The translations under genes and the position numbers were made by a program. Positions 1 to 46,300 of a stretch of DNA of 64,000 bases are shown here, piece by piece (positions within the stretch are counted from its first letter, which is position 1; each line of letters opens with the position of its first letter). Source of the DNA: Balanoglossus misakiensis (taxonomy: Eukaryota > Animalia > Hemichordata); the NCBI GenBank assembly GCA_040954595.2, contig CM082576.2, positions 12,775,129 to 12,839,128 on the forward strand. Direction: 5' to 3'. The notes beneath the pieces were generated by a model. That model was not told the origin of the DNA. It made no database searches and was given only the letters and a program-made list of their open reading frames with translations.

Positions 1-1653
1 CTGCACCGACACTAACAATGCAGTCCATGAAGACACCCGAGCGTCCTGTTGTAACTCCACGTAAGTGTTTTTGATAATTAACCTAAAGCTGTTTTAAATT
101 TCTTTACTATATTTTGCGTATCAACCAAGGTGCTTGGGTTCCCTGTGACTGATCACCGTGTGATGCATTTGTTTTTTATGATGGTTTTGTCAATTTTATA
201 GTCAGTTATAGTCAGTTACAGATATCAATTACATTTAAAGGACTATCATTATTAAATTCAGAAACATTTTAATTCTGCAATAAAATCAACAATTAGACGT
301 ACAAGTTGTGTTTTTTTCTTTCCATGTACTGTAATACACGATTTATTTATCTCGAGCAGTTACACTGACGAAGAATTTCTCTTTTTATTCTTTTTATCAG
401 AGCCCAATGACATCACTGTAATCATCATCATCGTCCTTGTGATTGTTGCACTTTTGGTTATCGTAGCAATCATAATCACTTACTATCGTCGGTAAGTTTT
501 GTCACGTGTTTCTTGTTCAGTTGTCAACGTAGGGGGAGCTGTCCGGGTCAGTTTCACTCATCAGCATTTTTGACCTGAGTCCCGCGCTCATGGTGCAAGT
601 ATAACCAGAACTGCAGATGGCCTTTCTTGGAGTACGTTATATGATAATCGCTCTTTGGTGTTGATTTTGTCAAACTGATGACGTCACAGTCTCTCCTCCA
701 TGCAGGGACCAGCATAGCTGTGGAAACGCGGCTGCAGCATGTGGGGTGTGGATTTGAGCAGGGCAGATTCCCTCACGTTGCCGTAAAGCTGCGTTTTCAG
801 CGGGCATAATAAGTGTAACTTACGTAGCATATTGTTTTTCTTGTAAAGGCGACAAGGACGATGTTTCAACAAGATTGATGAACCTGAGGAGAATCCGAAA
901 GGTAACGAACTTATCCCCGTTAATAACGAAATTAATTCTTCGAAGGAGGACAACAAAGAAAACGAAATGAAGGAGGGCGTCCCCAATCCTGCTGAAAATA
1001 ATGAAGAGCATGACTACGTCTATGTATCAGACGACAAAAACCAAACCGACTATGTCAAAGTATCAGACGACAAAAACCCAACTGACAATGTCAAAGTATC
1101 CGAGGACAAAAACCCAACCGACTATGTCAATGTATCAGACGACAAAAACCAAACCGACTCTGTCAAAGTATCAGACGACAAAAACCAAACCGACTATGTC
1201 AATGTATCAGACGACAAAAACCAAACCGACTATGTAATAGGGGACAAAAACCAAACGATGAATGGCGACTTGAGAGATCCGCAAAGTGAGACTGAGAAAG
1301 GAAAAGAACACGAGATTGGGAAGCCGAATGGCGCTGCAGGGGAAAGGAATCCGACCAGCAACGCCAGTGAGATCTTGTCACCGAATATTCAAAATCCAGT
1401 CACACCACAGTCGCACGACAAGAAAGAGCCTGAACCCCAACCCAGTTCATCCGACGCGTTAGAAGATGGCTTTGTTTATGCTGTCGCTCCCAAGGCGGGA
1501 TACGTAAAGAATGTAAAGGAGGCGTCAATAGTTAAACATCCGCATAGTCTCATGGCAAAAGAAACCAAGGCAAAAGAAACCAAGCTTTCTCAGCCGACGC
1601 ACACTGGGGAAGACCAGCCTATGTATTTGACACTCGAGCATGAAGCAGTCTAA
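1..1653 (+). CDS. Single-pass transmembrane protein (gene 1 of cluster; 5' part outside window) with tyrosine-repeat cytoplasmic tail; exons <1-60, 401-491, 849-1653
   Basis: GT-AG junctions keep one frame: ...APTLTMQSMKTPERPVVTP | QPNDITVIIIIVLVIVALLVIVAIIITYYR | RRQGRCFNK... into ORF 967-1653. Clear hydrophobic TM followed by a basic stop-transfer; AATAAA at ~1754. Confidence 0.85.
1012..1257 (+). repeat. Coding 36-bp tandem repeat (~7 units) encoding DYV(K/N)VSDDKNQT
   Basis: Unit gactatgtcaaagtatcagacgacaaaaaccaaacc starts at 1012, 1048, 1084, 1120, 1156, 1192, with a shortened copy at 1228. Confidence 0.95.
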
Positions 1654-4116
1654 ACTGCGGCCATCGCTATCCACGCCTCTCCCTATATACACGATGTATT
1701 TGGACGTTTGGTATAAACGGTTGTTGCAAGAAATCACACAATTACTCCCATTAAATAAACGCAACTTTTGCCAGCAGGTTAGACTTAGTCGGACAAGCTT
1801 GACGCGAACGAAGACGTCAAGTTTTTGTTTTGTGATTCTACGCACGCAGCTACCTCCATGTTCTGACTCTTCCGGAAACCATGGACTTTCCGAGATCCAC
1901 GTGACAGAACAGTTTACAAAACATCAATCAGCATCTGATCGGGGACACGATCATCAAACTCATCGGGAGCGTAATACAGTGGCACGGGACACTAGTAGTT
2001 GTCATATCACACTTTAAACTGAAGGTTCTTTGGAGTCCTTATCACTTGGAAATGCCAATAACAGTAATTGTGCTTTGACGTCCCGGTTTGAAGTACGCTG
2101 CATGTACTCGTTCTCAGACGATGGTGCAGCAACCCGCTACTCTGTTATCTATCCAATCTTACCACTCGGTCTCTCCATCTCAAAGACGAAGTGCGGTCTT
2201 GCTGGGTCTTGTAGCAAAACCACTGGAAATGTATGATGACTACAGTTTGAGTGTTCATTATATCCTATTTTAGGGGCACAATATTCGGCATATCATATGT
2301 TATCCCCGACTGTGGCAACGTTTACATTGCAAGTTTAATGGCTAACTATCTTCAGGAATTTGTTTCGCTTTATTCTTGATGTGTGAATAATGTTTTAACC
2401 ATCCTACTAACTGAACACGTCTCGACTGATCGGGACTAAAGCGATTTTAACACAGTTATGTTACATCAGGAGAATTATTATATATGGTTTTTGAATCCAA
2501 CATAATCAAGATTCGGGAAGTAGATAAAAAGACCCTTACATTAACTCAAACATATCACGTTATTTTAAAATCTTCCTTAGTTTGAATATTTTACTCGGTG
2601 GTGAAGGTTTGGAAATTATATTTTTCTATGGTTCTTCTGAATACTATTATCCTGGAGACCGAAACATGTCACATTTACACGAAAATTGAAAGTTATATAT
2701 ATATGTATATATATTTTGGTGACTTTGGGTTTTATATCGGGCAAATTTGGTCAGTCTTGTTGATTCGCTCGTTTTTATGATGTGAACCGCTAAAATTGTT
2801 TATTAATAAACGGTTATAGTTTAAATCTAGTGTCATTTTAACCCAAACTGCCAAACCCATTACTGTATCTTTCGCGCAGCTGTTGCGTTACCCCCCCCCA
2901 ACAAATGTAATAATTAATACGCATTGGGTTAATTATTAATAGTGTGGTGATACAGCTGTGAGAGGCCTCCAGACGAAACTGTCCCCTCCCTTCTGTGTGC
3001 ACATGCTTGTAGCTTTGTTGTAGTGGTGTCTCATCGTGAATGAAAACAGCGAGCGACAACCACCTGTTAAGAACAGCACAGCTCTTCGGTGTAGTGTAAC
3101 GAGGAACAAGCATAATTGGTCCTACCAGTAAGCTTACACGTTTATTCCAGTCAATGTCACGTCATCATACTATTGAGTCAAAGGTCAAATTGGATTCCCG
3201 TTTGGGGGATGTGTGGACGATCCAACACAGCAAGCCTGAAGAGCCATCTTTTGCACGGAGTTTCTGAACAAATCGCAGTTTCTAAGATTCAACATTCGAT
3301 GAAAAGTTTCTGGGTACAAATTGAAGCTGAAAGGGTTTGTCGTTGCAGTAGTTCCGCTCGGTGTAACTACCGATAAATGTCAAATTTCTGCTCTCCTGGT
3401 TCTATATCATTGTATTGTTTTCACCTGGCGTGGATAACATGACAAGGTAAATTATTTCGATATTTATTTGCTATTTACAGAAGAAAATATTAGCGGAGCG
3501 GCGTAAGTTCAGGAAGTCGAGCTCGGTAAGATGCGCACCCGGAATTGTGTGCTGAAAACACCCCCATTCAAACACAAATGATTGCAGTATCAGTATTACG
3601 GAGATAAAATACCAGGAAAAAAAACGTAACAAAACTCGCGGAACAGGGTTTCCTCGACAAAAGGCTTGTGTCTATATGTGTTTCACGTTTAGTGTAGCCT
3701 GCAGTCTATCTTTTAGACCGGGCTTACGCGGAGCTGACAATATAATAGAACAATACCCGCGGTGCACGTTTACTGCTCTGACAGTGGGTAAATCCCTGAC
3801 GTGACAACTGTGGTATACCTGGAAGCTTATGTCTGTATCACGGGGACTGATGTCAGTGTTTACACGGAATGACGATAAGAAATACATTTACACACGTTAT
3901 TTTATAGTTTCTGGTGAACGGAAATCCACGTTTAAGTTAAATTCGCCCTGTCTCTTACGTATCCGCGCGTTTGCCTCCGCCCTCTCACCAGGTAGCGAAA
4001 TTGTAACGTTTTGCAATCGACCGGCGCTTGTGATGGTGACACCGGCAGATACCGGTATCGATTTGATGGAAATATAAAGTGGACTCCTCTGATACAATAT
4101 CAGATCTGCGGGGATC

Positions 4117-5630
4117 ATGGGAAACGCCGAGAAAGAATTCTGCTACGGCAGCGCAAGGAACGACGCAGTTTTGTCGTGCGACTGTGTCGGGGATCTACCG
4201 GGACCGCCGAAGTCACCGCCGGCCGTCCCCTTGAGACCGACGTCAATCCCGCCAACACCTGGCGAACAAACAACTCTACCGCCTGTAAGCGGTAAGTGTC
4301 TGACATGGCCTCCTTTTGTAGCTGGCTGGTGTGGGGAAGTAAGTCAGTGTTTGTTGAACAAGAAACGGTAGATTGCAAACAAACGCCAGGTAAACACCTC
4401 ACGATTCTGTAATACGTTTTCCCAGGTTGTCAAATTGGCCAATTCTGTCACGTGATCTGTGAACCTGGGCGACGTCACGGAAGCGTGATTATTTGCAGAA
4501 AATTATTATAGTTTTATATCATGATAAATTTTCGCTTGTTAGACAAACAATTCTCGATGAGTTAGTAAATTATCTACTTTAGGGTTGTGACAGGAAATGG
4601 ACCTTTTCAAATTGATGGTAAGAATCCTTACACTGTTCTTGGAAAGAGTGAATGTAGGGTAACTAGAAAAATATGAGCTTTGTTGGCCTTTTTGTAAAAA
4701 ATGATACATGCATATGCGTCCCCACCCAAAAATATAATAATTAACATGTTAATGGGTAACCATATTGATCATTCTTTCTTTTATAGTAAGATACATTAGT
4801 ATATCTTCGCATGAAAACCACTGTTTGCCATAAGCCGACCATTTCACGTACAAAAATCCACAACTTCCTGGGTGAAACGAAATAACAAATGAAATTCATC
4901 AGTTTTTTTGTGTTTTCCAGGAGACGACGCCACCATTATCATTATTTGCGTCGTGGTGGGAGTAGTTGTCCTGGCACTAGTCATTTTAGCGCTTGTGTAT
5001 TGGTTCAGGTGCAGGTAAGTCTTCTCTTGCGTCTTGAGTATGATATCATGGAAGAAATGACTTATCCAGCGATGTGATGATGGTGGTGGTGATGATGATG
5101 ATGATGGTGGTGGTAGTCAAATTGACATCATCATTTACGGCATCGGTCGTGAACACAGAGAGACCCCTGCTACTATACGTGAACGGCGGTAAGCACAACC
5201 GTTGTTAGGCCCTAGTTACCATGGCATGTGCCGCAAAGTAGAAGACCAGATGACGGTTGTGTCGACGACTTGTCTCCTAAAATTGTAATTCAACCCTAAC
5301 CTATTAATGTCATTTTTTCTTATTTATTTACCAACTTATGATATTAAACTGCAGTTTATCGCTTTTCGTCAAAACAGGAAAACCGAATCGAAGAGCGATA
5401 CGACCGCTGTGGTGAAAGAAGAAGAAGAGATTTCCACGATCGCCGGAAATACTAACAATGTATATATGCATCATAGGGAAACCCCAAATATGATGTCAGA
5501 TATAAACGAACATAGATCACATAGATCCACTGCCAAAGCGACGAATCGCACGGGACACAATGGGGGTACTGTTATTCACACAAAAACCACAGAAGCGGAT
5601 TATTCCAATAGAGAAGTGACCTCTTTGTGA
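4117..5630 (+). CDS. Small single-pass membrane protein (gene 2, ~173 aa from M4117); exons 4117-4291, 4921-5014, 5378-5630; possible upstream exon ~3349-3446
   Basis: MGNAEKEFCYGSARNDAVLSCDCVGDLPGPP, then a Pro/Thr stalk | GDDATIIIICVVVGVVVLALVILALVYWFRC | RKTESK...EVTSL*. Canonical GT-AG sites and consistent phases (1, 2). True start uncertain. Confidence 0.75.
5075..5114. repeat. (GAT)/(GGT) microsatellite
   Basis: tgatgatggtggtggtgatgatgatgatgatggtggtggt in the last intron of gene 2. Confidence 0.8.
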
Positions 5631-6717: not shown

Positions 6718-9700
6718 ATGGCGAAGACTGCAAACTGGGACAGTTATTTGTGTCTTTCGCTGGTAAGTATGCAGAAACATCGACTGATAAAGACGGAGTC
6801 ATCTATCATAAAGTGTTGCGTTGCCATGACACTGCGTTGTTGATAATCTGGTACATTATATGTTGTGATGGAGTGGTACAGATTAGTACGTATGCTAGTA
6901 CGTGTAAAACTTAACTGACATTGTACCATAAATCCCGATGACCATAAAGCCCTTGCATTTTGTAGACAGATTTATGTATTTGTATGTGTGCCCAGAAAAA
7001 GAAAAACCAAAAAATATTATTAAATTCCTCTTTTTATGACTAATTTACCACCTCAGTGATGCAGGAATTTAGCCTCACAGAAATGTGAAAGTAAATTGTG
7101 GTGTACATAAAATACATTTTCACCGATGTCTGCTCTATCAAGGCATGTTATGTGGGCCACAGTGGAGGGACTGTGTGTGGCCTGCATGCATACACATGTA
7201 TGCAAAATTGTTTTCAAGTCTAAGTGAAAGTCCCAACCTGTATGGGAGTATTGGTTACAGGAAATGACAGAGGATATCCTATACAGTAACACTTCAAGTC
7301 CCACCAACATAACTGGGTAGTTTATAACTCAACCATTGAAGGTTTAATCAACTTCTACAATCCATTAATTTAAAAGCAGTGGTAGGGTTTTAGAAGTCCA
7401 AGAAATCTTTTTTGCTACCTCGTTCTACCTGCTGAACCTTCTGTGGTGAACACAATTGTGTCGATAAATACCATACAAATTTCCATCTCATTTATCAATG
7501 TTCTCTTTCAGTGCTTCATTGCCATAGAACTGTCAGGAGTGCACACAGAGCAATATTGCTATGGATCGGTTTCGTCAACCAAGCTTACCTGCACTGGGTG
7601 TCCACCAGACCTTCCTGGACCACCACCTGTCCCGCCCACAATTGGTGGATCAGGTAAATGTGGCTGTGCCAGCAGAACCATAGTTCATGGTGACGAAATA
7701 ATTGTCACCTCTCCTTCACTCACTCACCATTTGAAGGATGTTACATACTGTAAAACGGGAAATTTTCGCGACAGAAAATTTTCGCAGTATCAACAGAGGC
7801 GACTATTTCGCGTCTTTATTTGGCTCTCGTGAAGTTCGCAAAAATTTATTGTTTTGCGAAAATTTCCCGTTTTACAGAATGTTGGGTGTTTTATAAATGC
7901 CATCTATGGTGAAGGAGATACGCATGTGAGAACAAGCAGTCACTGTATTATTTAATTAATAAGTATGGTCTTAGACTGTACATGTATAATGTACACTGAG
8001 TACAAATGTACAAATGTAGTTGTTTTGTTTTGTGGAACAGAGCTCTGAGTTCTGCTAGTGTTCCTTTGTTGGATGGTGACCAAAATGTATGGTGCAGCTG
8101 TCCTACTTTTTAAGTGATCAGTATTGCGGGTATTAGTTCTAAATTGGATTCCATAAGCGACTGGAAGCCCAATTGATGCATGTCTTTGAGTATGGATACA
8201 TGTTGGTGCGAATATGTGACAAACAGCATTATTATGTGTTCTCTCTGTAGCAGATTAAATTGTATGGTTGGCAAGCCGTATAACAGAACATTGCCATTTA
8301 GTATGGATTAATTTGAGAAGTGTTTTTGTACGTGTAGATAAAGGTACCGGTAACCTTGTGTATCTATATGCAAGTTGTTTATTTCCTGGTGAGAAAGTAT
8401 AATCTGTTGGACAATGTACATTTTTCTTCCATACTTCATCTGATTGCAGCATTGTCCAAGCAAATTTATGATGACTCAGTAATGACTTGATGTAAATTTG
8501 TGTGCGAATACAATGTATGTACATCAACCATAATACATCATACAGTGACCTAGTTATGTTGGCTCTTGTTCAACTGAAAGTCAAAGACTTAAAAATGACC
8601 CTTGAACTACATGTAAGGCATACATACAATGTAGTCATGTACTACATGTACTTGTTGCAGTCCCTAGGGAGGTACAATGTATTGTGTGATAAAAACGTAG
8701 GATGTGTGCATAATTATGCTGATAGAATGAAAAGAATACTAGATGCTGGCAAATGTGTTCAATAACACATCTCAAAGCTGTATTTGTAGCAGTATGTATC
8801 ACGTTGCTATGTACAAGTAGAGTGAGGTGCACTGTTTACAACCACTCTGCTGCTACGTGTACAAGCCTCCTGTGACAGTGTTGTAAGTACAGTATCTCAG
8901 AGACATGTACAATGTATGTGTCCTAAGATTACAATGCACATGTGTCGTAATTGTGTTTCTAGGATGTATGACGTGCAAGAAAGTCACAGCTGACAGACAT
9001 CTGGGTTACAAATGACTTCTGTTGACATTTGTGACACGGTTGTCATTTATCAAAGCCGATTTCAATTGATGAAATTTTTAGTTGGCATTTATATTTTCAC
9101 TTGGATTCATCAGTTCACAAGAAGTAAAGATCAACTGAATGCAGTTATGATTTTGTTTGTATTTGTTTTGTTTGGATACTGTTGCGCCCCAATTTCACCT
9201 CAACCGATTGATTGATTATTTTGAGTCATGACTTACTCACCAGGTTAAGGTACACATACATTTAGTTAGAAAGTGGCACATGTATGATTGCAATGTAATA
9301 TGCATGCATGATTTCTTTCTATTCCTTTGAATTTCTCAGCTAATACCACTGCAGAACCCCCTGCACTGGTAAACACCACTCACATTACTTCCGTGGCACC
9401 ATCTACAATTGCTTATACGACCGCTAGCCCTGCACCATTTGCTACAACTGCCCCTGCCATAAATGCTACCATTTTGTCTACGCCAGCCTCCGCTATAAAC
9501 ATTACAACAGAACCGTTGGCTACGACAGTGCTTGCTACCACCTTAGAATCAATGACAACGGCTACTGCAAAAGTTACTGTAAAACCACCAGCCACAACTA
9601 CATGTACCACTGCTAAAGTTGCTACTTCTGAACCAACAAAATTGACCGATATTGTTACCGTGTCCGAGGCTGCTACTGCAACTCAAGAACCGTTTCAAAC

Positions 9701-12700
9701 AGGTGGTATAATATAATATCATACAGCAGGGTGCATTTCCTCATGATCACTTGAGTGAGAAACTGAAACAAATCCCCAAAGTATATAAACTGAACCTAAA
9801 TCCACTTTGCGAACAGGATGTCATGAAAATTATTTTGTACGCTCCACATTTCACAGATTTATACTGGGTCGCAATTTGATTTCTAAATTTGTGTTTTATC
9901 AGTGCATACACATAATGACTCATTTGATACACGAGTTAGAGGTGAATTGATGTTAATCTTGCATAAGGTAACATCAATCTATTGAATGAAAAGCAGCTGA
10001 TTCTGAATGAAAATAACTAAAGCTTGCGATTCTCCAAGCAGCTCTTCAAATATAAATGACAAACATGTGTCCCTTAATAATCCCTCCACTCATATACATA
10101 CATAGATGATTGTGTAGAGGTAGCATGAGAATCAAATTTTCATTGGTGTGCTCTTTAATACTTGCAAGGTTGCATGCTATGTACACATATGTTTTTCAGT
10201 ATGTTTTGATGTCATGCTCTAGTGACTCGAGAATCAGCTGCTGCCATATATTTGTGTTGAAGGGACAAATTAGCCAGTGTCAACCGGGATTTTTGTTGCA
10301 GCTATCACCCTATCCTGTATACACCTCTGCATGCTGCCATGATTTGCATTGTACTGTATATTACTGATGATGATACATGTACATGTATTCATGTATGATG
10401 CCCAGATTGCTCGCTTTTTGTCTTGACTTTCTCGTATCTCCATTTGGGTTTCTCCAGCCAGCACCACCTTTGTGCCTACTGCACCCGTCGCTACCACCTT
10501 AGACCCGCTGGCTCCAACAGCCAGTGAGAACGCTACCTTAGATCTGCTGGCCACTACGGCCGCTGCTAATGTTACCATAGAACCAATAAGTGCTATAAAT
10601 GCAACCCATCCTCCCACTGCGACTGAAGAACCCATCGTACCAGGTGGTATTTTAGAAATGATATCCTGTAGTGTTTTACATTAAAGTAGCATTGCCTTTT
10701 TGTAAAATTTGTATAAACGTGTTGTGTCTGGGTCCAACTGTGGCTATCACTTTTAATTGCATGCAGACTGTGGTAATACACAGTGAATTTCACATATTTT
10801 ACAAAAAAAGGGAATGCGAATTTAAGATGTGGGTGTACATTCATGTGAAGACCCTCCCACCCTGTGTGATGAGACATCTAAACCCTTTGGTGGAAACTGA
10901 CTGATCTATAACAAGATTTTGAAATCTCGTAGTGAAATTGATCTATTTTGTGATTTTTATCAGTGCATGTTTTTGAGTGAAACACATTACTTTTTAGAAT
11001 GAAGGTTCGTATTTTGATCAATTTTGTTTCTGAATCAATGCAGTAATGAATTTTAGTTAGTGACTAAATGCACGCAAGTACCAGTAAATATAAATTTAAG
11101 ATATTTTAAAGGCCAGAAATATCTTTTGACAAAATTTCCTGCATGCTACATGTATTTACATTTGAGTATATAACTGTTGGGGAAGAAGTAAGAACTACAA
11201 AAATGATAACAAGGTTTGAAATCTGATGCCCTGTTATCTATTCTGTGATAAAAAAATTTGCATTCAAACTATACTTTCACTTTCAGAACGGGAGGACTTT
11301 GGATGCTATCGTTAGTCTGTAACTGCATTGATAACACAAAGAAGCATGCATAACAAAATTAACTTTTTGAATTTTTTTTTGTTCATGATTTGAATGCATG
11401 TCACAATACATGCTTATGGAGATATATATTGTATTTACACAATGCATTAGATGTCTACAGGGAAGGACTAATGGAGGCTAGGAAATACATCCCATATTTC
11501 ATATATACCATACAATGCCATCAATGAAACAAATAACACAGTTGTATGTACACCTACATCTTTAGATGATCAATAATACATGTGCATGCTAAAAGTAAAA
11601 CGTAATCATCATGGTAATTATCTTTATCCCGTTAATCTGTGATCTGTACCCTGTGATAAAAAATTTATGTATTATCAGTTAAATATGCAATATGGAGCTT
11701 GAACTTTGCTTGGATGTCAGACTGGATTGATACAGAACACATAAGAATTCATTTTTTTCTTCATGAACGTTTCATTTGATCTGTTGTGAAACTGGATATG
11801 GTCTAGTAGAAATTTAGGACAAACGTAAATTGAATGACTTTCAACACAAAATTAAAAACACTCCAGGCAAAACATCCATGTATTTCTTACATCCAAAGTT
11901 TCAAAGCTCCGAATTGCTTTTAAACTTAATAACTGGTATTGCAATCATACAATCAACTGTTCACACTATCTTTGAAACATAATTTATTTAAGTCTTGATA
12001 ATATTTTATTAAAAAATAATATTTGAAATCTTAAGGCAAGACCAGTGAGTACAATGGAGTATGTTCAATAGGCATTGCTGCAGGATTTCGAATTCACTGT
12101 CAAATCTAGCTGACTCCATAGAAGAGTCAGTCACTACTGGTATATAAAATTATTAAAATTGTTTATGTTTGTTTGGTAAAATATTATACGTTACCATCAC
12201 TACATATGTTTATGTAATCAACAATTCTTGGATATTTTTTCTGGCATATCCTGCTTCAAACAATGTTGCTAACCATTATGTTCACATTGTACTATGGTTT
12301 TGTCTTAATTTGCATAAATATTAACATATTCGTGTAATTCATTTATGAAATATACACCAGTAATTGCACTTAAACTTAAAAGTAATTGTGTCAACTGTAT
12401 AATTTTAGATGTTAATATAAATTTTTAAAGTTAAAGTTTGAAGATTAAAGAAATTTTTTGGTAGATATTGTTGATAAATTACCATATGGCACACCATTGC
12501 TACCATAGTACGTTTCCATGGGAATATTAATTTTATTGATGAGTTGATATCGGGCGTTGCATTGCTCTTTTGGTCTTTTGACCGCGTGTCTGTTATTTGT
12601 GAGATCTCATCAAGTGTGTGTGAGTTCGTTTTGTTTTGTTTCTGTGCTTTGGTAGTCATAGTGACCAGATGGACGGGTAAATGATGATAGCTTCAAAATT

Positions 12701-15700
12701 AGCCTTGAGGGCTGGGTGGCTACTGATTTCGTTTGAGCCAATTTCTTGTCAAAGGAGGATATAAAAATCTGAAAGCAGTGACGTGTCACCCAAAATCGAG
12801 CTACAAGAAACATTTAATTAAGTGTGATAACTGACAGGTTTATTTTTGTATTAAAATGATAACGCCATGTGCAGAATAAGACATGCATAGTATCTGCAGG
12901 CTCATGTCGGTCTGTTGTATACATGTACTATACACTTTCAAATTCCCATACCCATACCCATACCAGCAATATCTCTCCTTAATTGGCCAGGCAACAATGA
13001 TTGGACATTTTCCAAGTATCTGTCAATGTCCAGACTGTACTGAGAGATCATCCTACACTCTCATATGATCAGCATAAACATGTAATGTTCGCTGACCTCT
13101 GCATGACCCATTTGACCTCAAAAAGGTTGTAGATACACGCAGAGGTAAAGGTCTTGAATATTGGGTATCTTTTAATTGAATGTGCAATGCCATGTTCATT
13201 GAACCCATTGTCACAATACACAGCGAGGTACATGCATGTCCACACACATGTAAGCTGATCAAACAACATGAAATCAAAATACTCGAACCTTGTATGTCAC
13301 CATAGCAACACATCCCAAACATTTTACTGCCCCCAAACCCACCCCAGGCCATTACCATCAGCATCCACCCACCCACCGAATCAAATTGTCAACAACTCAC
13401 GAAATATGTGTTTTTGATTTTCAAAAAACAGTGGAATTAAAATTTTCCTTAAGCCAGACGACGTATCCCCGCTCCTGCATCCTCAACATGTAAACACATA
13501 CATGTACATTCTACATCTGACGCTGCAGTGGTCATGTTGTCTATATTGATCAACTGTCATACGATAGATTCTTACAGAAAATGCAGGTGTTTAATTCACA
13601 CTGCTAGTGGCCTGTGATTCTAAAAAAAAATTAGATGAATAGAAGTGTCTACACAGCAAATGTTGATGATAACATACAACTGTAACGGTGATACGTGTAT
13701 ATCGATAACTTCTGCCTCACAGGCTGCTCATTTCTCTGTGTCCAATAATATCATCTACTTGCAGTTCCCATGGCAACACAAGGTTAATGTTTATTTTGTG
13801 GAGTGATTTATTTCCCACATGAACTGTTTTTGTTGAATTCAGAATTTTTCTTCCATGACCGCAGCCTGTGTTGAGTTAAATTTGTGGAGGGTTAATAAAA
13901 TGTACAGATATTATGTTTGCACCATTGCTCATGAATTGTTTTTTTTCATGCTGCAAAATTTTGAGACTGAAAATTCTTGTATTCACGTTGGGTGCAGAAT
14001 TCTTGTGCTGTTAATATGTGTGTACCTGGGGCATGTATGTAAATGTATGTATGTATCATACATTAAAAACATACATCCATGGAGTGATGTACGGTACATC
14101 ATCAATGCCTTGCTGGCATTTTCTAATCTGTTAGTAAAAGTACTGTCCACCACTGCAATTTTCAGAAATAACATTTTGCCATGTTTTCCTTGCCATATGT
14201 GTATTTGTATGTGTGTACATATATGAATGTAATTGTGAATGTTTGCGTATCAGGTTGGGCTCTACACTGAAGGATGTATGTTTGCACATCTGCCCCATTT
14301 CATGTGACGTCTTTAAACTGCAAAGTTCGGTTTATACCAGTTGCTTGAAAATAACAGATGCACAAACACAAGATGTGCTTGTAGCATTTCAAGGTTTCCC
14401 ACCGCAAGTTTTCTTTTATTTCCTGTTTATTATTTTCATCTCTGCTTTTTGCTGGGTTTTACAGCGATGGTGTGCTTTCATTTATTTGATTCATTTTTTC
14501 ACTCATCATTTCTCCCGCTTGCATTTTTCCCTCGTCTTTTTTTTTATGTTGTCACATTTATGCAGGAAATGGCACAGAAGTACAGCAGCCTTCTCCAGGT
14601 AGAGCTTCGAGCATCCCTACACTTTCCCTAATTTGCACATTATTCATGCTACATGACGTCAAACTGTTATTATCCATCACAGCCAGCTTAATTGCACGCT
14701 CTGAATTTTTTTGCTCTGTGGTCTCAGCATTCCAACTTTGCGGATTAACGCTTTGAAATCAAAATCAAATGCCAATAAAAAACTGTAAGGAATGTGTAGT
14801 GTATTCCATGGCCAGTTTACTTTGTTTGACGCTACTAGACTGACACGAGATAAAATGTACTCTCCCAAAGATAGCTTTGTAATATTTGGTCTCTATCTTG
14901 CCGTTAATTTTCCACGGAGATGAGCGTATAAAACCTGTATTATTAGATTACCAATGTATAGAAAGTTCAAATGTAATGTTTAATGTTGTAAAGCATGTCC
15001 ATTTTATTAAAAAAAATTAAGGCTGGAGCCTGACACAGTGGAATGTCACATTGTCACTGATGGACAGGTTGAAAATGTTCATGTATAAAATTAGCCCCAC
15101 TTTTAAGAATAGTAATGATACTGTAAGTATGCAATTGCACCTTAATGAAAAAAAAAGATTTCTCCCCCCCCCCAAATGACCAGTTATAATTATTAATTAT
15201 CTCTTTGTCTTTTCCGTTAGGTGGCTGTAACGCGTTGTGTATTGCACTGATATGTGCAGCCCTCATATTGGCAGCAGTCGGTATTACGTGTGCGATAGTA
15301 CTGTATGGCAAAAAGAAAAGGAAATGGTAAGTCTTGAGTCACATTGCAACAGACTTCTCCGTTACAACTTGCAGTTGTGACAAACTTGTATACAGTTTGC
15401 ATCCCAGTATCAGGTGTTTTGTTGTACAAACACACTTGTACGATAGGAGCAGTAGCTACATATTATTAAACTTGATACTTTTTGGTTCTGTGCATCGACA
15501 ACAGAGGTTTCTTGCCCCGACTCCTTCGAGCAGTTGAAACATCCAGGGTGTATTTGGCTCTTCAACTTAAAGGTATACGGTCACCTATGGAAAATTAGCT
15601 ATAGTTACCATGGCAAATTTGAGATCTAGCCAATCACAGATTTTCAGTGGGTGGCACACGCGAAAAAAAGAGCGCCACCATATGTTCTTCAGAATGCTCA

Positions 15701-18152
15701 AATACACAAATTCAGCCATGATATACGGACATACTGTATGCACATTGGAGGTGACTGTATACGCCTATATAAGTTAGGATGATGTGCCATGTCTCTTAGT
15801 AAACTGCGGATGTCGACTGTTGGTGCTACAAAGTATAAGTTATATTTAAATTGGAGAATTATGATATTGCTGGCTATCCAGCTGCGATGGAAGTCGGTGT
15901 GCATTCGTGCAGACACTGTGGAGATCCTTGATTAAGAAACCCCAGTTGAGACATAACAAAATACCGGTAGTGATAAAAAAATTTCAAAAACCTTGGTACT
16001 GTATGGTCACTTGACTCACTGTGCCTGGGGATGAGTTTTGAAGATATGCTGTGTCTGTATGGTAAAGTGATAGCCAACTGTTTCACCAGACCCTGTCTGT
16101 GTCAACAGTATGGTTCCATTTTAAAATTCCTCAAGGGTTTCCGTTCAGGGTTTTTTCTTTTGCTCAGTGCCAAACACTTATGTGAAGATGACTGAGTAAT
16201 TGATTTGAAATTACATGTTATATTGTAAGTCCCACTGAAGTAATCTTTAAAAAAAGTGGTGAAGTGATAAATTTGACCGATGCAAAATATTATATTAAAA
16301 ATTAATGTTTGGACATTTGCCTTCAAAAAGTAATAAATTGCTGTGATGTTTGTATTCTCGACACCTGTGATCAATTTATCAAAATTTATATCACACATCC
16401 TATTATTACTCACATTTGATGCCGTGTTTCGTTTTGAATGTTAATTTTTAATTTGTGTGACCCAGAGAGAGGAAAACGTGAATTTTACTTTCTTTGTGAA
16501 TAGTGATGAGAAAGTATTACCTGACATCCTATTCATTGCAGAATTCTCATGAGAAATTGATCATACAATTGCCAGTATATGGTGTTTCCTGCGGCAAGAA
16601 ACTTTAAATTGTGAATGCGAAATAATACTCTTTACGCTTTCCTGTCCAATCTTGGTTTTAATATCGTTGATGCTGGCTCTGTCGAATGGAAATACAGAAA
16701 ATAGACAGACAAGTTACAATTTTATATGGCAAAAAAGTTATTTCATTCTAACTTTAAATATTGAGATAAAAATACCTAATATGCAAGGCTACATGTATAG
16801 AAGGGCAATGAAATGTAAAAACTCTATCAGCCACGAAAGATTTTACCAAATGAGTAATTATGAATGAGAATGTAGGGAAAGTTCATATGTAGATCTTCTT
16901 ATTGTTGTCGTTACAAAGAGAGACTTTTACCTTGAGGATATTTCGCTGTGTGGGTGATAGTGCAACCAATATCCGTATGAAATTATTTCCTGTCGGTAAT
17001 ATAATCCATATTTAATGTGCCTGAAATACTTGTTGATATACTTTGTCCGCATCTGTTTCTGTCTGCGTATACTCACACAGCCTCATCATGTTTCCAGGGG
17101 AAATACCGGGTGTGGTCTCTGTGTGTGTCATGAAATAAAAATGAGTTGTTCCAGGTTACCAGAAATTGAAGGGAAGGGTCCAGGGATATGTTGTGCGAAA
17201 AATGACCACACCCATCCGTAGTACCCTTCTCTCCGTCACACACACTTCTCATTCCTTGAAAGCCAGTTTTGGGAGGAATGGGAATGGGAATTCTCAGGAG
17301 TTTGGACGCTAGAAATGTAAGATACGTAATAGTCAATAATTTCCATTTGTGTCATTTCTGTCTTCCCAGGTGTTGGAAAGAGAAGTCTTCGAAGGGTGGA
17401 AGAACATTCTACCCAAAGCCTGGTGATGTTGGTGCTGCGTCAAGTGTGGAAATGGGTAGGTTTTCCCCCTATTAAATTCCTAAATGGTTTGGTCTGGATG
17501 CATTGCCTTCTATGGCAGAGTTGGACCTCTATGGAGAGAAATGGGGGCAGAGGATGAAAACACATTTTCCTTTATGTATATAATTTTGGTAAAATCTTTG
17601 TTGCACGACTCTGCATTAGGTGCTGCGAATCCAGCATTGACTAATGGCGAGAGTCCGACTCACAAGGCGAGTCCCGGCCACAGCGACCCCGGCAGCCCGA
17701 CCAGAAAAAGGCACCACAAGAAGAAACACACCAGGAGCCATTCGCCAAGTCCAGCACACTCTGGCAAAGTGGGGCCGGCCACGGAGACGGACGGCGTGAG
17801 CAAAAGCACGGATCCGCTCTTCGATCCGGATGCCAAGTACGTGTACCCGGGAACGCCACCGCGAGATCTACCCCCGGTAAACACAGAAGAGAACGACGAG
17901 AGCCCCAGGAGAAAGAAGAAAAAGAAGAGGAAACACAAGAAGAAGGCGGAGATCGCCGGTGACGAGGAGGAGACAGGGCAGCCCACGCTGGTCAGCGTTA
18001 ATCCGAAACACATGAAGTCAACGGCGCAATCGTCAGTGGAGCCGTTACCACCGGTCAACGTCACCGCACCACCCAGCGCGCTCTCTCCTCTCAAAAACCC
18101 GAGACCGTTGCCGACGTTGCCTCCGTTGGGGACATCCGACGGACACGCGTAG
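6718..18152 (+). CDS. Type I mucin-stalked membrane protein (gene 3, ~490-510 aa); exons 6718-6762, 7512-7653, 9340-9702, 10458-10643, [11287-11310], [14566-14598], 15221-15326, 17370-17455, 17620-18152
   Basis: Signal-like MAKTANWDSYLCLSL|CFIAIELSGVHT; Cys motif EQYCYGSVSSTKLTCTGCPPDLPGPP; two Thr/Ala/Pro-rich exons; TM GGCNALCIALICAALILAAVGITCAIVLY followed by GKKKRK; long basic/Pro-rich tail. All junctions are GT-AG and in frame; bracketed small exons are less certain. Confidence 0.75.
7748..7877. mobile_element. MITE (~130 bp), Tc1/mariner-type termini
   Basis: 22-bp TIR ctgtaaaacgggaaattttcgc ... gcgaaaatttcccgttttacag. Left flank TA; right flank AA (degenerate TSD). Confidence 0.8.
15567..15707 (+). 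mobile_element. Interspersed repeat / DNA transposon end (copy B)
   Basis: ttaa|aggtatacggtcacctatgg...gctcaaatacac is an inverted copy of 5712-5850. Confidence 0.7.
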
Positions 18153-21108: not shown

Positions 21109-22976
<1,868 letters not shown>

Positions 22977-23108
22977 CTTGGTAGTCAAAACCCACCTATA
23001 ATGAAAGAGACAAAACTATATTGTTCAATGATTCTCGTTATTTATAATTTTCATGGAAAGGGACTGAAATATTAACATTTCAGCAGACCGCATGATTTTC
23101 ATGCCTAC

Positions 23109-25422: not shown

Positions 25423-28400
25423 AATAATAATAATAACAACAACAATAACAATAACAAAATTACTGAGTTCCCTGTGGTATTGCGTGTACTTTGAACCAAA
25501 GTGCATCGACAACATTTGTTACATGTTAGTTTGTCGGTGTTGATAGTTACAGACATTGCTTCAAAGTGAAGACAGCCTTCCTATATAATCAAATCAGTGA
25601 AATTACCAGAATCTCTAAAATGATTATAAATGTACACCCATTTGCACAAGTTATTTTTTTATGTAGGATATCAGTAACCATGGCAGCTGCATTGATGTAC
25701 TGATCACATGTACATAAAATGTTCAACTAATATCAAAGAGCGCCCTCTAGTGAGAGAGTTCAGCTTTTCCTAATTCTTCGCTTTGCCCGCTGGAAATATC
25801 TTATACATACAAGTAATTTGTTTCTAATCTGCATCCAAATATTTCTTTTGTGTGAAACAAGACATCAAATTCTAACATTCCCCTGGGCAACTTAAGGTGA
25901 ATTTGGTCACTTAAATTGTAATGCAGCTAAACAAATGGTGAGTCATTGCCGGAGGATGAATTTGTTTCAATGAAAGTAAAATGAACGTGTGTGTGTTGCT
26001 ATGGTAACCTGGTACCCTACTTAAAGAGGGTGAATATGTCAAGTTTGAAGGGTTACTTAATGAGTAACAACAATGAAAATGTCAAAATAGATGATTCTGG
26101 TTTGTTTGTATTACGGTAGTCATTTTTAAATGAATTGAAGACTGAAAATATTTGGTCAACAGTATAAGACAGTGCTAACATGTAATTGTTCATATTTACA
26201 TCAAGAGTAAGTTGGACTATTTGTAATTACTTGCAAAAACAGTTTTTCGTGATGTGTATTCTGTCACTCTGTGTTGTACAACAACTCTGGTCTCAACATT
26301 TTTTCCCTGCCTTTTTTCGCCAGAAACTCTCACGCATCTGGTACTCGGTGAAAGTCAGCTGGAGCTATACGTCAGGGAACACCCTCTGAAGGAAGAGAGC
26401 ACGAAACCGGCCAAGAAGGAGCTGGAATCAGCCAAGAAACATTTACAACAAGCGTTAAAGGGAGAGACGAAGGTAAACCTGTTATCTTACTTGGTCTGTG
26501 GAAACCATGGTGTGTGCACCCTAACCCACCAATGTGGACACATACTTAGAGAAAAGCACTGAGAAGTACAGAAATGTCACAGTTGAAGTACCGGTAATAT
26601 GCAAGTTTGTTGGGTCAAGCGATAAGCCTGTGTCCTGTATTTCAAATTTACCCACAGCGTACAGAAAGTACGTGTTGATTTTGAACTATCAGAATGTTAA
26701 TTGGCTTTCAGTATGTATTAAAATTGACATGTGGATTTCATCAACTTGGTATTTCCAATTCAAAATGATCATAACGTTTCTGCAACAATGACAGGAGGTT
26801 TGAGCTTCGCAAATTCTGTTGCTCTCAAAGTATAATAGAACTTCACAAATTATACTTGGTAAGGGCATTTAATAATTAATGATTTAATGAATATTACCAA
26901 ATTTTCAACATTTCAGATTTGCGGTATTCATTTTCTTTTGTAAAATTCCATTAATCTGAAATTAACAGCTTTAATTATTTTATTCAGAATAGCAATAAAT
27001 GCTAATTGATAAGTTAAGTTGACAGTGAGGTTTTCTCCCAAGGGTGTTGTGATTGACATTATAAAAGTGTAATGAGCGAGGATTAAAACATTGAAAACCC
27101 ATCATGGTGTAATCACACAGGAGTGATTTCTGTTCGAGAAAATACTGGAGGTTCTATTATCAAAATGGCATTGAATGTCACAAATGGAACTGCTTTTCTG
27201 CAAATTGAATTACTTTTTGCTTTTCTGATTTCTTAAGTAGTTTGGTTGTTATGACAAGCAGCCGTACACTTGGTCTGTTGGGACGCTGTTTTTTAATTAA
27301 ATATGGAGTTAGGAAATCCGGCGATAGACATCGTCGTGTTTTATCAACACAAGCACTAAGCACAAATCATCGTTTTTGATTACTCACAGTGACACTCGTG
27401 GCCTGTGCATTTTACACTTTTGCACAAAAAAGAAAGAATTGCCAAAGTCCGATTCTTCGATTGATTAATTAAAATTGCACACAAAGTGACATTTCCCTTT
27501 GATTCTGTTTTAGTATGGCTGGGTACAGGAAGCTCGTCTGCTGCTTGGCAAGCTGTACTTCGCCATTGGTGACTACGAAGAATGCCTCAACTATTACGGC
27601 AAGGCTGGCTTGGACGATCTGACGGTGGAAAGTATGAGCAATCGCATGCTAAGAATGATAGCGGAGGCCTTTGCAGTAAAAGGTGTGTGAGAAAAGCCCT
27701 TTATTTGATTTTTTGCTGGGCAAAGTAAACTCAATTCCAGCAAGAAAAAAAAGAACTCAGCTGCAGCGCTTGGATAAAAAATGATAGACATACTTTACAA
27801 TTATCACAGTGTATCAAATTTAATTAATTTTAAAACTTGTGCTTTTACAACTAAAAGTGATGAATGCTTTTGAACGACGACGGGAAGATGTGGAAAGAAT
27901 AATTGACTGTGTGCTTAAACCTTTTCAAATCTGTTGACCCCCTGCTGTGTCAGGACTGAACATATAGATTCGATGTCTCCTTGGTTGCTATGGTTTCTTG
28001 GTAATCACTACATGCTGTCTCCTGTCACTAGTATGATGGTGATTGTGATACAGTTCTAGAACAGCAGCCATCTTTTCATTCCAATGCCAGTATAATTAAA
28101 TTAAACCAAGATGAATTCAGAGGATGGCAATTTAAATAAAGGTGTTCAAAAATAATTCAAACGTGTTTCCTTCGCGCACAAAAAGAATTATGCATTATGC
28201 CTTGTATGTACAGACTAACCCTTTCATATTTTACATGTATGTACATGTGTGTATGTTTGTGTGTGTGTGCATACATGTATGCATGATACATGGAATAGTT
28301 CTTGGTTTATCAAAGTGTTGAATGAATTTTCAGTATTGTAAGAACAATATATATTGAGTATATATTTGTCTGCATTTTCATAATATGAATTGACCATTTC

Positions 28401-31400
28401 TAATACTATATTTCATAGGCATGGCATTAGAAAAGACACCAGCCAAAACCAGCAGTAAAATCAAGCTGGTCCAGATGGAGGAGCAGATCATATCGTGCTA
28501 TGAGAAATCGGGGGACATCGCTCTGTTGTACTTGCAAGAATGTGAGAAGGGCAGGAGCAGCACTATGTCCACATCCAGTGCTGGATCTGGATACAGCGCT
28601 GTACCGACCACCTATGTTGGACCAATTCTAGAAACTGCTATACAGAGAGCTCCACTCCTACACATACAGATGGGGTAGGTAAAAACGAAAGGTTAAGGTT
28701 TAATGTAGGGGAAGTTGAGAATAAATTGGAATCATTGTAATATGTGTATTGTTGAAATTGGCCATAATGCATTATGCTGTATACATGTACACAGATATTT
28801 TCATTTGTCTTTGGATGTGTATGGTGTTCAGTCATTTTCTGATACAATTCTCATGCAGGGCGATATCAATCTTGCCGTGACTCTGTGAACTAATAAATGT
28901 AGTGGAGTTTTTAAGTGCTATCCTTAGGTGGCATGATCATGTTTGGTCAAATCTCTTCTCTATTTACAGTATCTTTTGTATCTCTACCCTTCCAGGGATT
29001 TGGATCGTGGAATAAACCGCTTCCGCCTCGTATTGCGGGCGGTGGAGTCGCGGGCCACCCAGAACGTGAGGATGACCCTGGCCAGAGAGTTGGCGGAGGT
29101 GTTGCTGCGAGGGGTCTGCGAAGGCACCTACAATCCGCCGGCGCCGCCCACGGGAGTTCCCGACAAGTCTGCTTCCCTGAGTCGGCCCGGCGCCGGTGGT
29201 GTCATCGGCACGGCTATCAAGGTGGCAGGCATGAAGAGCGCCAACTTGGCTCTGAGACCGAGACAGTACATTGGAGAGCAGTAAGTTCTGTGTCTGTTCA
29301 ATGGTGTTGCGAGAGCTTGGATATGTGTCCTGCTGGGTGATTGGTCAGTGGTGATTGGTCATGTGGTCGGATCAGATTTACATACTCATGTTTATTCTAA
29401 TGTGCCGAGTGAATACATGTAGATTGTCACAAGTTTGATTTTAAGAGGAACGATCAAGAACCACAATGATAAACTGCCTACAGATTGTCTGTGTTTCTTT
29501 TTACTGGTATTATAAATGATGTTACTTACAAAAATTTACCTCAAGATGAAAAGCTAGCTGTGATGGGTTTCTGTGTGTTCTTCATGTGTATGTATAAAAA
29601 TGTCTGTTGCTATGTCTGCATACATGTATGTGTGTGTATGTGAGCGTGTGTGTTGTGTGTGTGGTTACATTGTCATATTATGTAAGATTATAAACTGATG
29701 TCGTATACAAGGTTTTAATAACATCTTGGTTAAAATGTCCCTGCAGATTCTGTATTGTAAATAGTTTGTTGTGTTTCTGTCTATTTGGAGGTGCAGTCAG
29801 GTAGTATGTGATGCATATGTCCCAACTGTGGTCTGGTACTGTGGTGCGATACGTATATATGCCCAAAACTTTCCCAGCCTACCCTATTCTTCTGTAGATT
29901 TTTATGCAGTTCCTCTCATTTTTTGTACAGTTCCATAATTCCCAGTCTTGTTATCACCTCGGCTAAATCCTATCCATTCCCTTCTCCCTATGCTTTCTCA
30001 TCCTTGATTGATGACATCATTATGGAATCATTTTTCGGTTACTATTTTTTCCCCTTTTTTTGATATATCTTGCTTTTTCTCTTGTCATGGCTTTGATGTG
30101 TGTCCATCTTCTTCCAGCTATGATGAGAAGTAAGTTCTTCATCATCAACATCATCAACATCAAGCATCTTGACATTTAGCGTTAACCAGAGCATGATCTT
30201 TAAGTCATACATTCTATTTTTGATTTTTTAATTCTTCTATTTTCACTAAACAATTCTGCCTGTATAGATCAAACTACATATTTTGTCATGTAAACACACA
30301 TTCATTTGTATGAAACATTAATTTCTGTCCTTAGCAAGCATGTCTGACCTCAACACTAACTTTTGTATTTTGTTTCTAATCACTGAAGCATACCTTATTC
30401 TAGAATACTTACGAGATTTATGTTTATTTTATTTCTGTGATCAAGTTGTCACTTTTAGAGGAACAAAGTCACTATCTTTTCACGTAAATCTGGTATGGTG
30501 CCCGTAGATACTAAAGCCCCAAGTAGCTGTATTGAACTCCTTGTAGAATTTCGGTGTTTTTGTACTATGGTGAATAATAACACTGTGTGTGTACACATTT
30601 CCAAGAGTCAAAGCGACCAAAAAAGCTTATGATATTTGAAATAATACTCTGCTAAAATACATTTAGGAGCAGGTCAACTTTTGTGTGCATATGTAATGAG
30701 TTACTTCAAGCATCATTAGAATTCTGGACGATTACTGGAACTTTAGATATCATAGCTTCAAATCCAGAAGTTCTGAACTGTGTCAAAATGCACACACCAT
30801 CCACAATCAAGAAAATTTCCCTCTTAGTGTTGTTATAGTAAGCAATTTTTATTCTTCTAATTATGTACTGTAAAAAGTCAATGGAAATGTGTCTGTTGTT
30901 TCCAACATCCTAGATGTGATTACAAAATACAGAAGTCATGTTCAATCTTCAGTTCAGGGGTCCAGTTGCTAGCTAGCAATCCCTAAGGTGTCAATTCAGT
31001 ATTTGGCTTTAGAGTCTAGAGATCTCCTGTCTAAATAAGGTTGGATTTTCTTTCTTCCTCTGCTTTGAATCCAAGATGCAAGGTGCATGGGATGTTTCTT
31101 TTTTTTTCTCTACGCCATATTTTTCCTGCTGACCTTTTATACCGTGTTGACTGGATGGTATGTGGCACTGCATACTTTTATTGCCGCTTGGTGCATTTCT
31201 ACACAGATCTCATTGATGCGAATGTGACGAAGTGAAGGCCAGTAGATAACAAACTCTGAGCTTCTCCGGTTATGGATTCATGGAATTCTGCCTCTATCAA
31301 AGCTTGAGCATGTTTGGAACTGTCTAGTCAATCTGCTGTGGGGATATGGTTGAAAAAAAATCACATTTGAGATAAAAAAAAACAATGAAATGCTTAAGAC

Positions 31401-46297: not shown

Positions 46298-46300
46298 ATA

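What the first reader, a model, noticed from the sequence alone, without database searches (positions are those of the whole stretch)
1012..1257. Cytoplasmic coding VNTR building an array of ITSM-like phosphotyrosine motifs
Seen: a 12-aa repeat gives HDYVYV, TDYVKV, TDNVKV, TDYVNV, TDSVKV, TDYVNV, TDYVIG. Three are exact TxYxxV, two also contain YxN, and two units have lost the Tyr by single-base changes (tat>aat, tat>tct). Further tyrosines lie downstream (FVYAV, GYVKNV, PMYLTL). Established: ITSMs bind SHP-1/2 and SAP-type SH2 domains, pYxN binds Grb2, and acidic residues before Tyr favour Src/Syk kinases. Inference: repeat copy number and Tyr on/off state could tune signalling between alleles, analogous to CagA EPIYA repeats but in a host receptor.
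Basis: partly seen in the sequence, partly recalled or inferred. Interest (0 to 1): 0.72.

Follow-up and report, generated by a model that had tools for sequence, protein, structure and literature searches.

The report
Acorn-worm receptor tail with tyrosine repeats
An unnamed membrane-protein gene, likely from an acorn worm, carries a 12-amino-acid repeat in its predicted inner tail whose tyrosines differ between the two versions of the gene seen in one sample, and these tyrosines likely act as a variable row of docking sites for signalling proteins, a design already known from other animal receptors.

Summary
In detail: a 36-bp repeat (1009-1254) lies in frame in the 268-codon last exon of a single-pass membrane gene, predicted cytoplasmic; 5 of 7 units keep Tyr and 3 match TxYxxV. 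A neighbouring gene matches a Ptychodera flava protein (49%), so the animal is likely an acorn worm; no homologue of this tail was found. New here: a second haplotype in the same sample has a different array (last four units YVDV, YANV, YVKV, YANV, all with Tyr; Tyr-less NVNV units elsewhere). Extra copies are only hinted at by contig depth. All three exon indels keep the frame. 'ITSM' overstates it: YVNV is exactly LAT's Grb2 site, the SHP2 fit is imperfect, SAP could not be tested, and selection on the tyrosines is not shown. A carp Ig-receptor gene model has a convergent 12-residue DYINV array, and Botryllus co-receptor alleles already swap tyrosine motifs. Best reading (0.55): a LAT-like multivalent SH2-docking tail built by minisatellite growth. 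Main rival (0.3): tolerated repeat churn in a disordered tail. Expression, phosphorylation, ectodomain and partners are untested.

The parts
1..60 (+). 3' end of a Thr/Pro-rich stalk exon of gene 1 (runs off the window; donor at 61, phase 1)
   Evidence: open frame into the next exon; donor GTAAGT. The ectodomain lies outside the window.
401..491 (+). transmembrane exon of gene 1 (phase 1 to phase 2)
   Evidence: best 19-residue window has mean hydropathy 4.0; T-rich acceptor; 2 K/R in the 15 residues before and 5 in the 15 after the helix
849..1653 (+). predicted last exon: acidic, low-complexity cytoplasmic tail with 9 Tyr, stop TAA at 1651-1653
   Evidence: no second hydrophobic segment; in-frame indels on the second haplotype
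1009..1254 (+). 36-bp coding minisatellite, six 12-aa units plus a 10-aa unit; motif Tyr codons at 1015, 1051, 1123, 1195, 1231; Tyr lost at 1087 (Asn) and 1159 (Ser); an extra Tyr at 1021
   Evidence: Tyr spacing 12/24/24/12 residues
1471..1635 (+). three further Tyr (codons 1477, 1501, 1624), the last in YLTL; this patch differs strongly between the two haplotypes
   Evidence: 17 substitutions in 1401-1653, 9 codons changed in amino acid, all three Tyr kept
902..910 (+). possible internal splice donor (phase 1, 7 of 9 consensus), use untested
   Evidence: no good acceptor inside the exon, and downstream acceptors give frames of at most 38 codons
4104..5630 (+). gene 2: four-Cys motif exon (~4104-4291), TM exon 4921-5014, tail exon 5378-5630 with NVYM and DYSN; 5' end unresolved
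6718..18152 (+). gene 3: seven exons, 486 aa, signal-like start, four-Cys motif, mucin-like stalk, TM, tail; match to Ptychodera flava XP_070577108.1

Best explanation
The repeat lies in the coding, predicted cytoplasmic last exon of a single-pass membrane gene, likely of an acorn worm, and its tyrosines likely form a multivalent row of SH2 docking sites whose make-up differs between the two haplotypes seen. Inferred steps: the receptor is engaged or clustered; a Src/Syk-type kinase would phosphorylate the D-Y-x-x-V units; units with Asn at Y+2 (YVNV, YANV) would bind a Grb2-type adaptor, as in LAT, and units with K, Q or D there would favour other SH2 proteins such as SHP2; unequal exchange between repeat copies and point changes add, remove or retype sites. 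Whether alleles then signal differently, or selection maintains them, is not shown.
For: Shown: canonical splice sites join stalk, TM and tail in one open frame; exon-like composition (T 0.15-0.19 against 0.31-0.42 in the two introns) and 1255-1650 open in 0.08% of 5,000 shuffles; basic residues follow the TM. Second haplotype: 3 of 3 indels in this exon are multiples of three (-3, -15, +6), the +1 at the stop keeps TAA, pN/pS about 0.40 in 1402-1650. Its last four units read YVDV, YANV, YVKV, YANV: the listed changes fall on Y+1, Y+2 and spacer positions and leave T-2, D-1 and V+3 (decoded by hand). YVNV is the Grb2 site of LAT (PMC2194190, passages); Grb2 strongly selects Asn at pY+2 (PMC7337045, passages); about 10-12 residues is the shortest spacing for two SH2 domains (PMC13681993, passages). 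A carp Ig-receptor model has the same period and a DYINV core.
Against: No expression, phosphorylation or binding data. The excess of silent changes is marginal (P=0.056) and the retention of 3 of 3 downstream Tyr is expected by chance (P=0.71). The Tyr codon is lost in 2 of 7 units, and Tyr-less units also occur on the second haplotype, so single sites are dispensable. No homologue of the tail among 1.84 billion representatives: 13 hits at E<=0.001, centred on the repeat, so conservation across species could not be tested. The ectodomain is outside the window, and kinship of gene 1 with genes 2 and 3 rests on position and exon phases only (no blastp match at E<=0.05).
Confidence: 0.55

Rival explanations
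1. Tolerated repeat churn: a minisatellite grew in a disordered tail where length hardly matters; at most one or two Tyr, or none, are used, and the allelic differences have no effect on signalling.
For: Tyr is lost twice in seven units while neighbouring D and K positions are unchanged; 10 of 13 changed codons in the repeat alter the amino acid (several contigs pooled); a random local 12-mer holds some YxN or YxxPhi motif 3.5% of the time; selection tests are not significant.
Against: The full TxYxxV pattern arises in 0.11% of random units; T-2, D-1 and V+3 survive in the four decoded units of the second haplotype; a fish receptor converged on the same unit.
Confidence: 0.3
2. The YxxPhi motifs are trafficking signals (adaptor-complex mu-subunit binding, recalled knowledge) rather than phospho-docking sites; the C-terminal YLTL would drive uptake of a mucin-like membrane protein.
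For: 5 YxxPhi matches, one of them YLTL near the C-terminus; neighbours are mucin-stalk proteins.
Against: Val is a weak Phi residue (recalled); acidic residue before Tyr and Asn at +2 fit kinase and Grb2 use; the second haplotype changes YLTL to YWTL.
Confidence: 0.07
3. A true ITSM switch receptor: the motifs bind a SAP-type adaptor and phosphatases in competition, as in SLAM-family receptors.
For: 3 exact TxYxxV in the window allele and 4 of 4 in the decoded units of the other; consensus as in PMC4610628 (passages).
Against: The switch depends on SAP/EAT-2; two paper searches gave nothing on these adaptors in invertebrates (listings only) and the genome is not held, so their presence is untested (from memory they are vertebrate proteins). 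No Ig ectodomain is seen in the neighbours.
Confidence: 0.04
4. The repeat is not in the cytoplasmic protein: it is either removed by splicing from the donor at 902, or faces outward, where its NQT/NVS sequons would be glycosylated.
For: Donor-like site at 902 with the same phase as the small post-TM exon of gene 3; 9 N-x-S/T sequons in the tail.
Against: No T-rich acceptor among 18 candidate sites in 902-1653 (best pyrimidine share 0.57; used sites 0.62-0.90); downstream alternatives are at most 38 codons; frame kept on both haplotypes; stalk before and basic cluster after the TM.
Confidence: 0.04

Closest known systems
LAT and related transmembrane adaptors (PMC2194190, passages)
   Same: Single-pass protein with an acidic tail of many Tyr; two YVNV Grb2 sites, the same four residues as two units here.
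   Different: No sequence homology found; here a Thr/Pro stalk precedes the TM and the sites come from a DNA minisatellite that differs between haplotypes.
Labeo rohita Ig-domain receptor model XP_050957763.1 (P0003)
   Same: 12-residue acidic repeat with a D-Y-(I/V)-N-V core in the tail behind a TM; 36% identity over 112 residues.
   Different: Ig ectodomains, uniform units with Tyr kept, array at the very C-terminus; similarity confined to the repeat region, so likely convergent; itself uncharacterised.
Botryllus fester co-receptors, FcoR (PMC12582321, passages)
   Same: Clustered type I receptors of a non-vertebrate deuterostome with 1-4 YxxI/L/V core motifs of unknown function; alleles of FcoR3 and FcoR4 differ in their Tyr motifs.
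   Different: Ig superfamily, paired with fester genes, canonical ITIM/hemITAM; no minisatellite mentioned in the passages read.
SLAM-family ITSM receptors, e.g. CD229 (PMC4610628, passages)
   Same: TxYxxI/V pattern; an allelic change inside an ITSM alters SH2 affinity two-fold.
   Different: Ig ectodomain and SAP/EAT-2 dependence; neither shown here.
Bacterial EPIYA-type effectors CagA and Tarp (PMC3593179, passages)
   Same: Tandem duplication of a Tyr motif in a disordered region; copy number and point changes alter SH2 binding.
   Different: Injected bacterial proteins with measured effects; different motif; here a host membrane protein with no measured effect.
Biomphalaria polymorphic transmembrane clusters GRC and PTC2 (PMC7494358, passages)
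   Same: Cluster of single-pass membrane genes without known domains, divergent haplotypes with indels.
   Different: Far larger divergence and a mapped resistance phenotype; here one patch of one exon, two haplotypes, no phenotype.

Membership tests
ITSM-bearing (SLAM/PD-1 type) receptor | TxYxxI/V in a cytoplasmic tail | tested here: met
   3 matches; topology predicted
ITSM-bearing (SLAM/PD-1 type) receptor | Ig-superfamily ectodomain | not testable with these tools
   ectodomain lies 5' of the window and no genome is held
ITSM-bearing (SLAM/PD-1 type) receptor | phospho-dependent binding of SAP/EAT-2 in competition with phosphatases | not testable with these tools
   definition; two searches returned nothing on invertebrate SAP
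ITIM receptor | [ILVS]xYxx[ILV] | tested here: not met
   0 matches in the window allele's tail
ITAM receptor | YxxL/I x6-12 YxxL/I | tested here: not met
   0 matches; one pair fits the spacing with Val at +3
LAT-like transmembrane adaptor | several YxN Grb2 sites in an acidic tail | tested here: met
   2 YVNV; 2 YANV on the second haplotype
LAT-like transmembrane adaptor | very short ectodomain (recalled) | tested here: inconclusive
   at least about 24 residues of Thr/Pro-rich stalk precede the TM and the frame runs off the window
LAT-like transmembrane adaptor | sequence homology to LAT-family proteins | tested here: not met
   no such Pfam family; none among the 10 of 13 hits whose names were looked up or the Pfam scan of all 13
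coding VNTR | tandem array in a reading frame | tested here: met
coding VNTR | copy number differs between alleles | tested here: inconclusive
   unit content differs; a 75-bp contig with a unit absent from the window has depth 51.2 against 22-25 for the second haplotype's other contigs; no contig spans the array
local four-Cys mucin-stalk cluster (genes 2, 3, P0024) | N-terminal C-x-G...C-x(1-2)-C-xx-D-x-P motif | not testable with these tools
   motif shared by genes 2, 3 and P0024; gene 1's N-terminus is outside the window

The most novel reading that the evidence does not exclude
Gene 1 is an acorn-worm recognition receptor under balancing selection whose minisatellite is a heritable signalling dial: alleles differ in number, type (Grb2-type or not) and spacing (12 against 24 residues) of phosphotyrosine sites, the host counterpart of CagA repeat variation.
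Probability: 0.2. Interest if true: 0.65.

Novelty: new variant of a known kind. Interest (0 to 1): 0.33.

Why it matters
If the docking reading holds, two natural alleles give a ready-made test of how the number and spacing of phosphotyrosine sites set SH2 avidity, in a deuterostome lineage whose immune signalling is little studied (a search for hemichordate + ITIM + immune listed 2 papers, neither on this topic by title). The building principle is not new: multi-tyrosine tails and allelic motif switching are described in Botryllus and Hydractinia, and a carp gene model has a similar array. Without expression or binding data it remains a candidate.

Tried and rejected
Own-genome search: no genome held, so the 5' part of gene 1 and acorn-worm SH2 genes could not be read. 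Sequencing runs: no RNA holder listed. No contig spans the array; holes in cover were not used. Pfam on 10 window ORFs: nothing at a curated cut-off. phmmer of the tail: 13 hits, repeat-driven, none a credible orthologue. Gene 2 Cys exon: 0 of 21 candidates scored; three-sequence Cys profile: 2 of 350 candidates, both isoforms of the P. flava protein used to build it. First Cys alignment was in the wrong frame and was discarded (redone in 34). Atlas: P0024's best hit 0.83, below the 0.9 bar; the tail could not be searched. Tail against P0024: no similarity. No second copy of the repeat in the window. Rfam on 1-30000: 0 matches. No structure or complex prediction was run. Paper searches for a receptor with a cytoplasmic Tyr-motif VNTR (listings only) showed no such case; the library is partial, so this is weak. 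An initial reading that placed a Tyr-less unit on the long second-haplotype contig was corrected from the depth sums (note).

Full report
Observation. The repeat is real: period 36, 6.2 copies, 90% matches at 1012-1235. It sits in the 268-codon ORF 847-1653. Three match TxYxx[VI], two contain YxN, none matches ITIM, canonical ITAM or YxxM. The copies descend from one unit, so the chance question concerns one 12-mer: 0.11% of 400,000 random units of local tail composition hold TxYxx[VI], and 3.5% hold YxN or Yxx[LIVM]. That is unusual for one repeat, but the class of motif was picked after seeing it.

Gene anatomy. GT/AG sites join a Thr/Pro-rich stalk exon (to 60), a transmembrane exon (401-491) and the exon 849-1653 in one open frame. 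The helix has 2 basic residues in the 15 before it and 5 in the 15 after, and the tail has no second hydrophobic segment, so the tail is predicted to be cytoplasmic. The exon is T-poor (0.15-0.19) unlike the two introns (0.31-0.42), and its non-repeat 3' part stayed open in 0.08% of 5,000 shuffles. A donor-like site at 902 exists, but none of 18 candidate acceptors inside the exon matches the used ones, and acceptors further down give at most 38 codons. The 5' part of the gene is outside the window and no genome is held, so the ectodomain and ligand are unknown.

Neighbourhood and organism. Two further single-pass genes follow on the same strand with the same phases around the TM exon. Both carry a short four-cysteine motif (blastp E=5e-6 between them). 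Gene 3 (486 aa) matches an uncharacterised Ptychodera flava protein, 49% identical over 88% of the tail query, the only hit among 1,959 candidates; the animal is therefore likely an acorn worm. Earlier notes of this scan on the same genome say the same (unchecked). Gene 1 shows no blastp match to genes 2 and 3 or to the P. flava protein, so its membership of this small family is an inference from position and exon plan.

Relatives of the tail. phmmer over 1.84 billion representatives gave 13 hits at E<=0.001, with best stretches centred on the repeat. I read and named 10 of the 13 and scanned all 13 with Pfam. One is informative: a Labeo rohita Ig-domain receptor model with a 12-residue DYINV array behind its TM, 36% identical over 112 residues. 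The match is confined to the repeat region, so I read it as convergence. It shows that such arrays occur in host receptors.

Second haplotype. Three runs of one sample were laid on the region; all are contigs, none is recorded as RNA. In run X1 one set of contigs is identical to the window (depth 37-40) and another differs (depth 22-25). In 1401-1653 the second carries 17 substitutions: 9 codons change amino acid, 6 do not, pN/pS about 0.40 (P=0.056 against neutrality); deletions of 3 and 15 nt keep the frame, and an A added at the stop keeps TAA. All three downstream Tyr are kept, which chance gives with P=0.71. This patch is more divergent than the 3' flank (17 of 253 against 10 of 578 bases, P=0.0004; P=0.027 if the identical 1252-1400 is included), but the patch was chosen after the fact and contigs drop some variants. 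In the array, a 352-bp contig anchored in the 3' flank has 18 other letters and 6 added bases; 14 of the 18 can be assigned from the table, and decoded by hand they give last four units YVDV, YANV, YVKV, YANV, the last one full length. So 4 of 4 have Tyr at 12-residue spacing, where the window allele has 3 of 4, and overall spacing of 12/24/24/12. Short contigs add a YVQV unit (depth 24.4) and a Tyr-less NVNV unit (depth 51.2, about twice the single level). The least count is seven units without the depth argument and eight or more with it; 11 of 19 X1 contigs were not listed and none spans the array. I take the second sequence as an allele (co-linear introns, shared flanks), about 75%; a recent paralogue is not excluded. 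Run X2 has loose ends that start or stop at GATC, as in a proximity-ligation library, so its depths were not used.

Mechanism. Shown: a coding Tyr array with two different make-ups. Inferred: phosphorylation and SH2 docking. YVNV is the sequence of two Grb2 sites of LAT (PMC2194190, passages), and Grb2 loses about 1000-fold affinity without Asn at pY+2 (PMC7337045, passages). The most variable position of the unit is Y+2 (N, K, Y, Q, D, I), so each unit has two switches, the Tyr itself and the Grb2 residue. SHP2 prefers hydrophobic residues at pY-2 and pY+5; the units have Thr and Asp, an imperfect fit. Ten to twelve residues is about the least spacing for two SH2 domains (PMC13681993, passages), which equals the period; the same paper found little difference between SHP2 and ZAP70 in preferred linker, so a 12-against-24 switch of partner is speculative. 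Against all this, Tyr is lost repeatedly and no test of selection reached significance; the neutral rival keeps 0.3.

Comparison and membership. It works, most likely, like LAT or the Botryllus co-receptors, but no homology to either was found. The ITSM pattern is met; the Ig ectodomain and SAP binding that define SLAM-type receptors (PMC4610628, passages) could not be tested. Allelic change of Tyr motifs in host receptors is in print for FcoR3/4 (PMC12582321, passages) and CD229; activating and inhibitory tails turn over in Hydractinia Alr genes (bioRxiv 2022.03.25.485889, passages). Copy-number effects are known for CagA and Tarp (PMC3593179, passages). Clusters of divergent single-pass genes are known in snails (PMC7494358, passages). 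Two searches (listings only) showed no host receptor with a polymorphic Tyr-motif minisatellite; the library is partial. No supplements were read. Earlier notes of this scan report multiplied Tyr motifs in octopus, sea-squirt, skate and shark receptors (unchecked), which fits a recurrent design.

Verdict. Real and coding, with shown differences in unit content between two haplotypes; a new variant of a known kind.

Noticed in passing
window 4104-5630 and 6718-18152 (+): Two uncharacterised single-pass genes share a short four-cysteine N-terminal motif with P. flava XP_070577108.1; no Pfam family and no other relatives found. Gene 2's tail has NVYM and DYSN and ends in a PDZ-type TSL (motif class recalled); its 5' end is unresolved.
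   Followed up: partly
window 17620-18152 (+): Gene 3's tail keeps DPDAKYVYPGTPP unchanged in P. flava amid a 49% identical tail; a conserved YxxP-type site.
   Followed up: partly
window 9340-9702 and 10458-10643: Mucin-like exons of gene 3; a shorter P. flava isoform (P0025) lacks the stalk, which points to stalk exon skipping.
   Followed up: no
window about 21150-22990 (-): Ubiquitin-ribosomal protein S27a fusion gene, named from memory of the sequence. Three introns share a short motif around 'tcattaggtgtcctaagt' that may mark intronic small RNAs; Rfam found none.
   Followed up: partly
window about 26200-43540 (+) and 62240-62640 (-): Exons that resemble TTC7 and STPG4 (names recalled; only a sub-threshold SHIPPO-repeat hit for the latter).
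   Followed up: no
window 46300-53808: 88-bp satellite, 85 copies, 95% matches.
   Followed up: no
window 295-382, 548-811, 1760-1789: The second haplotype lacks 86 and 262 bases in the two introns and 30 bases in the 3' flank.
   Followed up: no
P0003 (Labeo rohita XP_050957763.1): Uncharacterised fish Ig receptor with nine tandem DYINV units in its tail, itself a candidate for the same question.
   Followed up: partly
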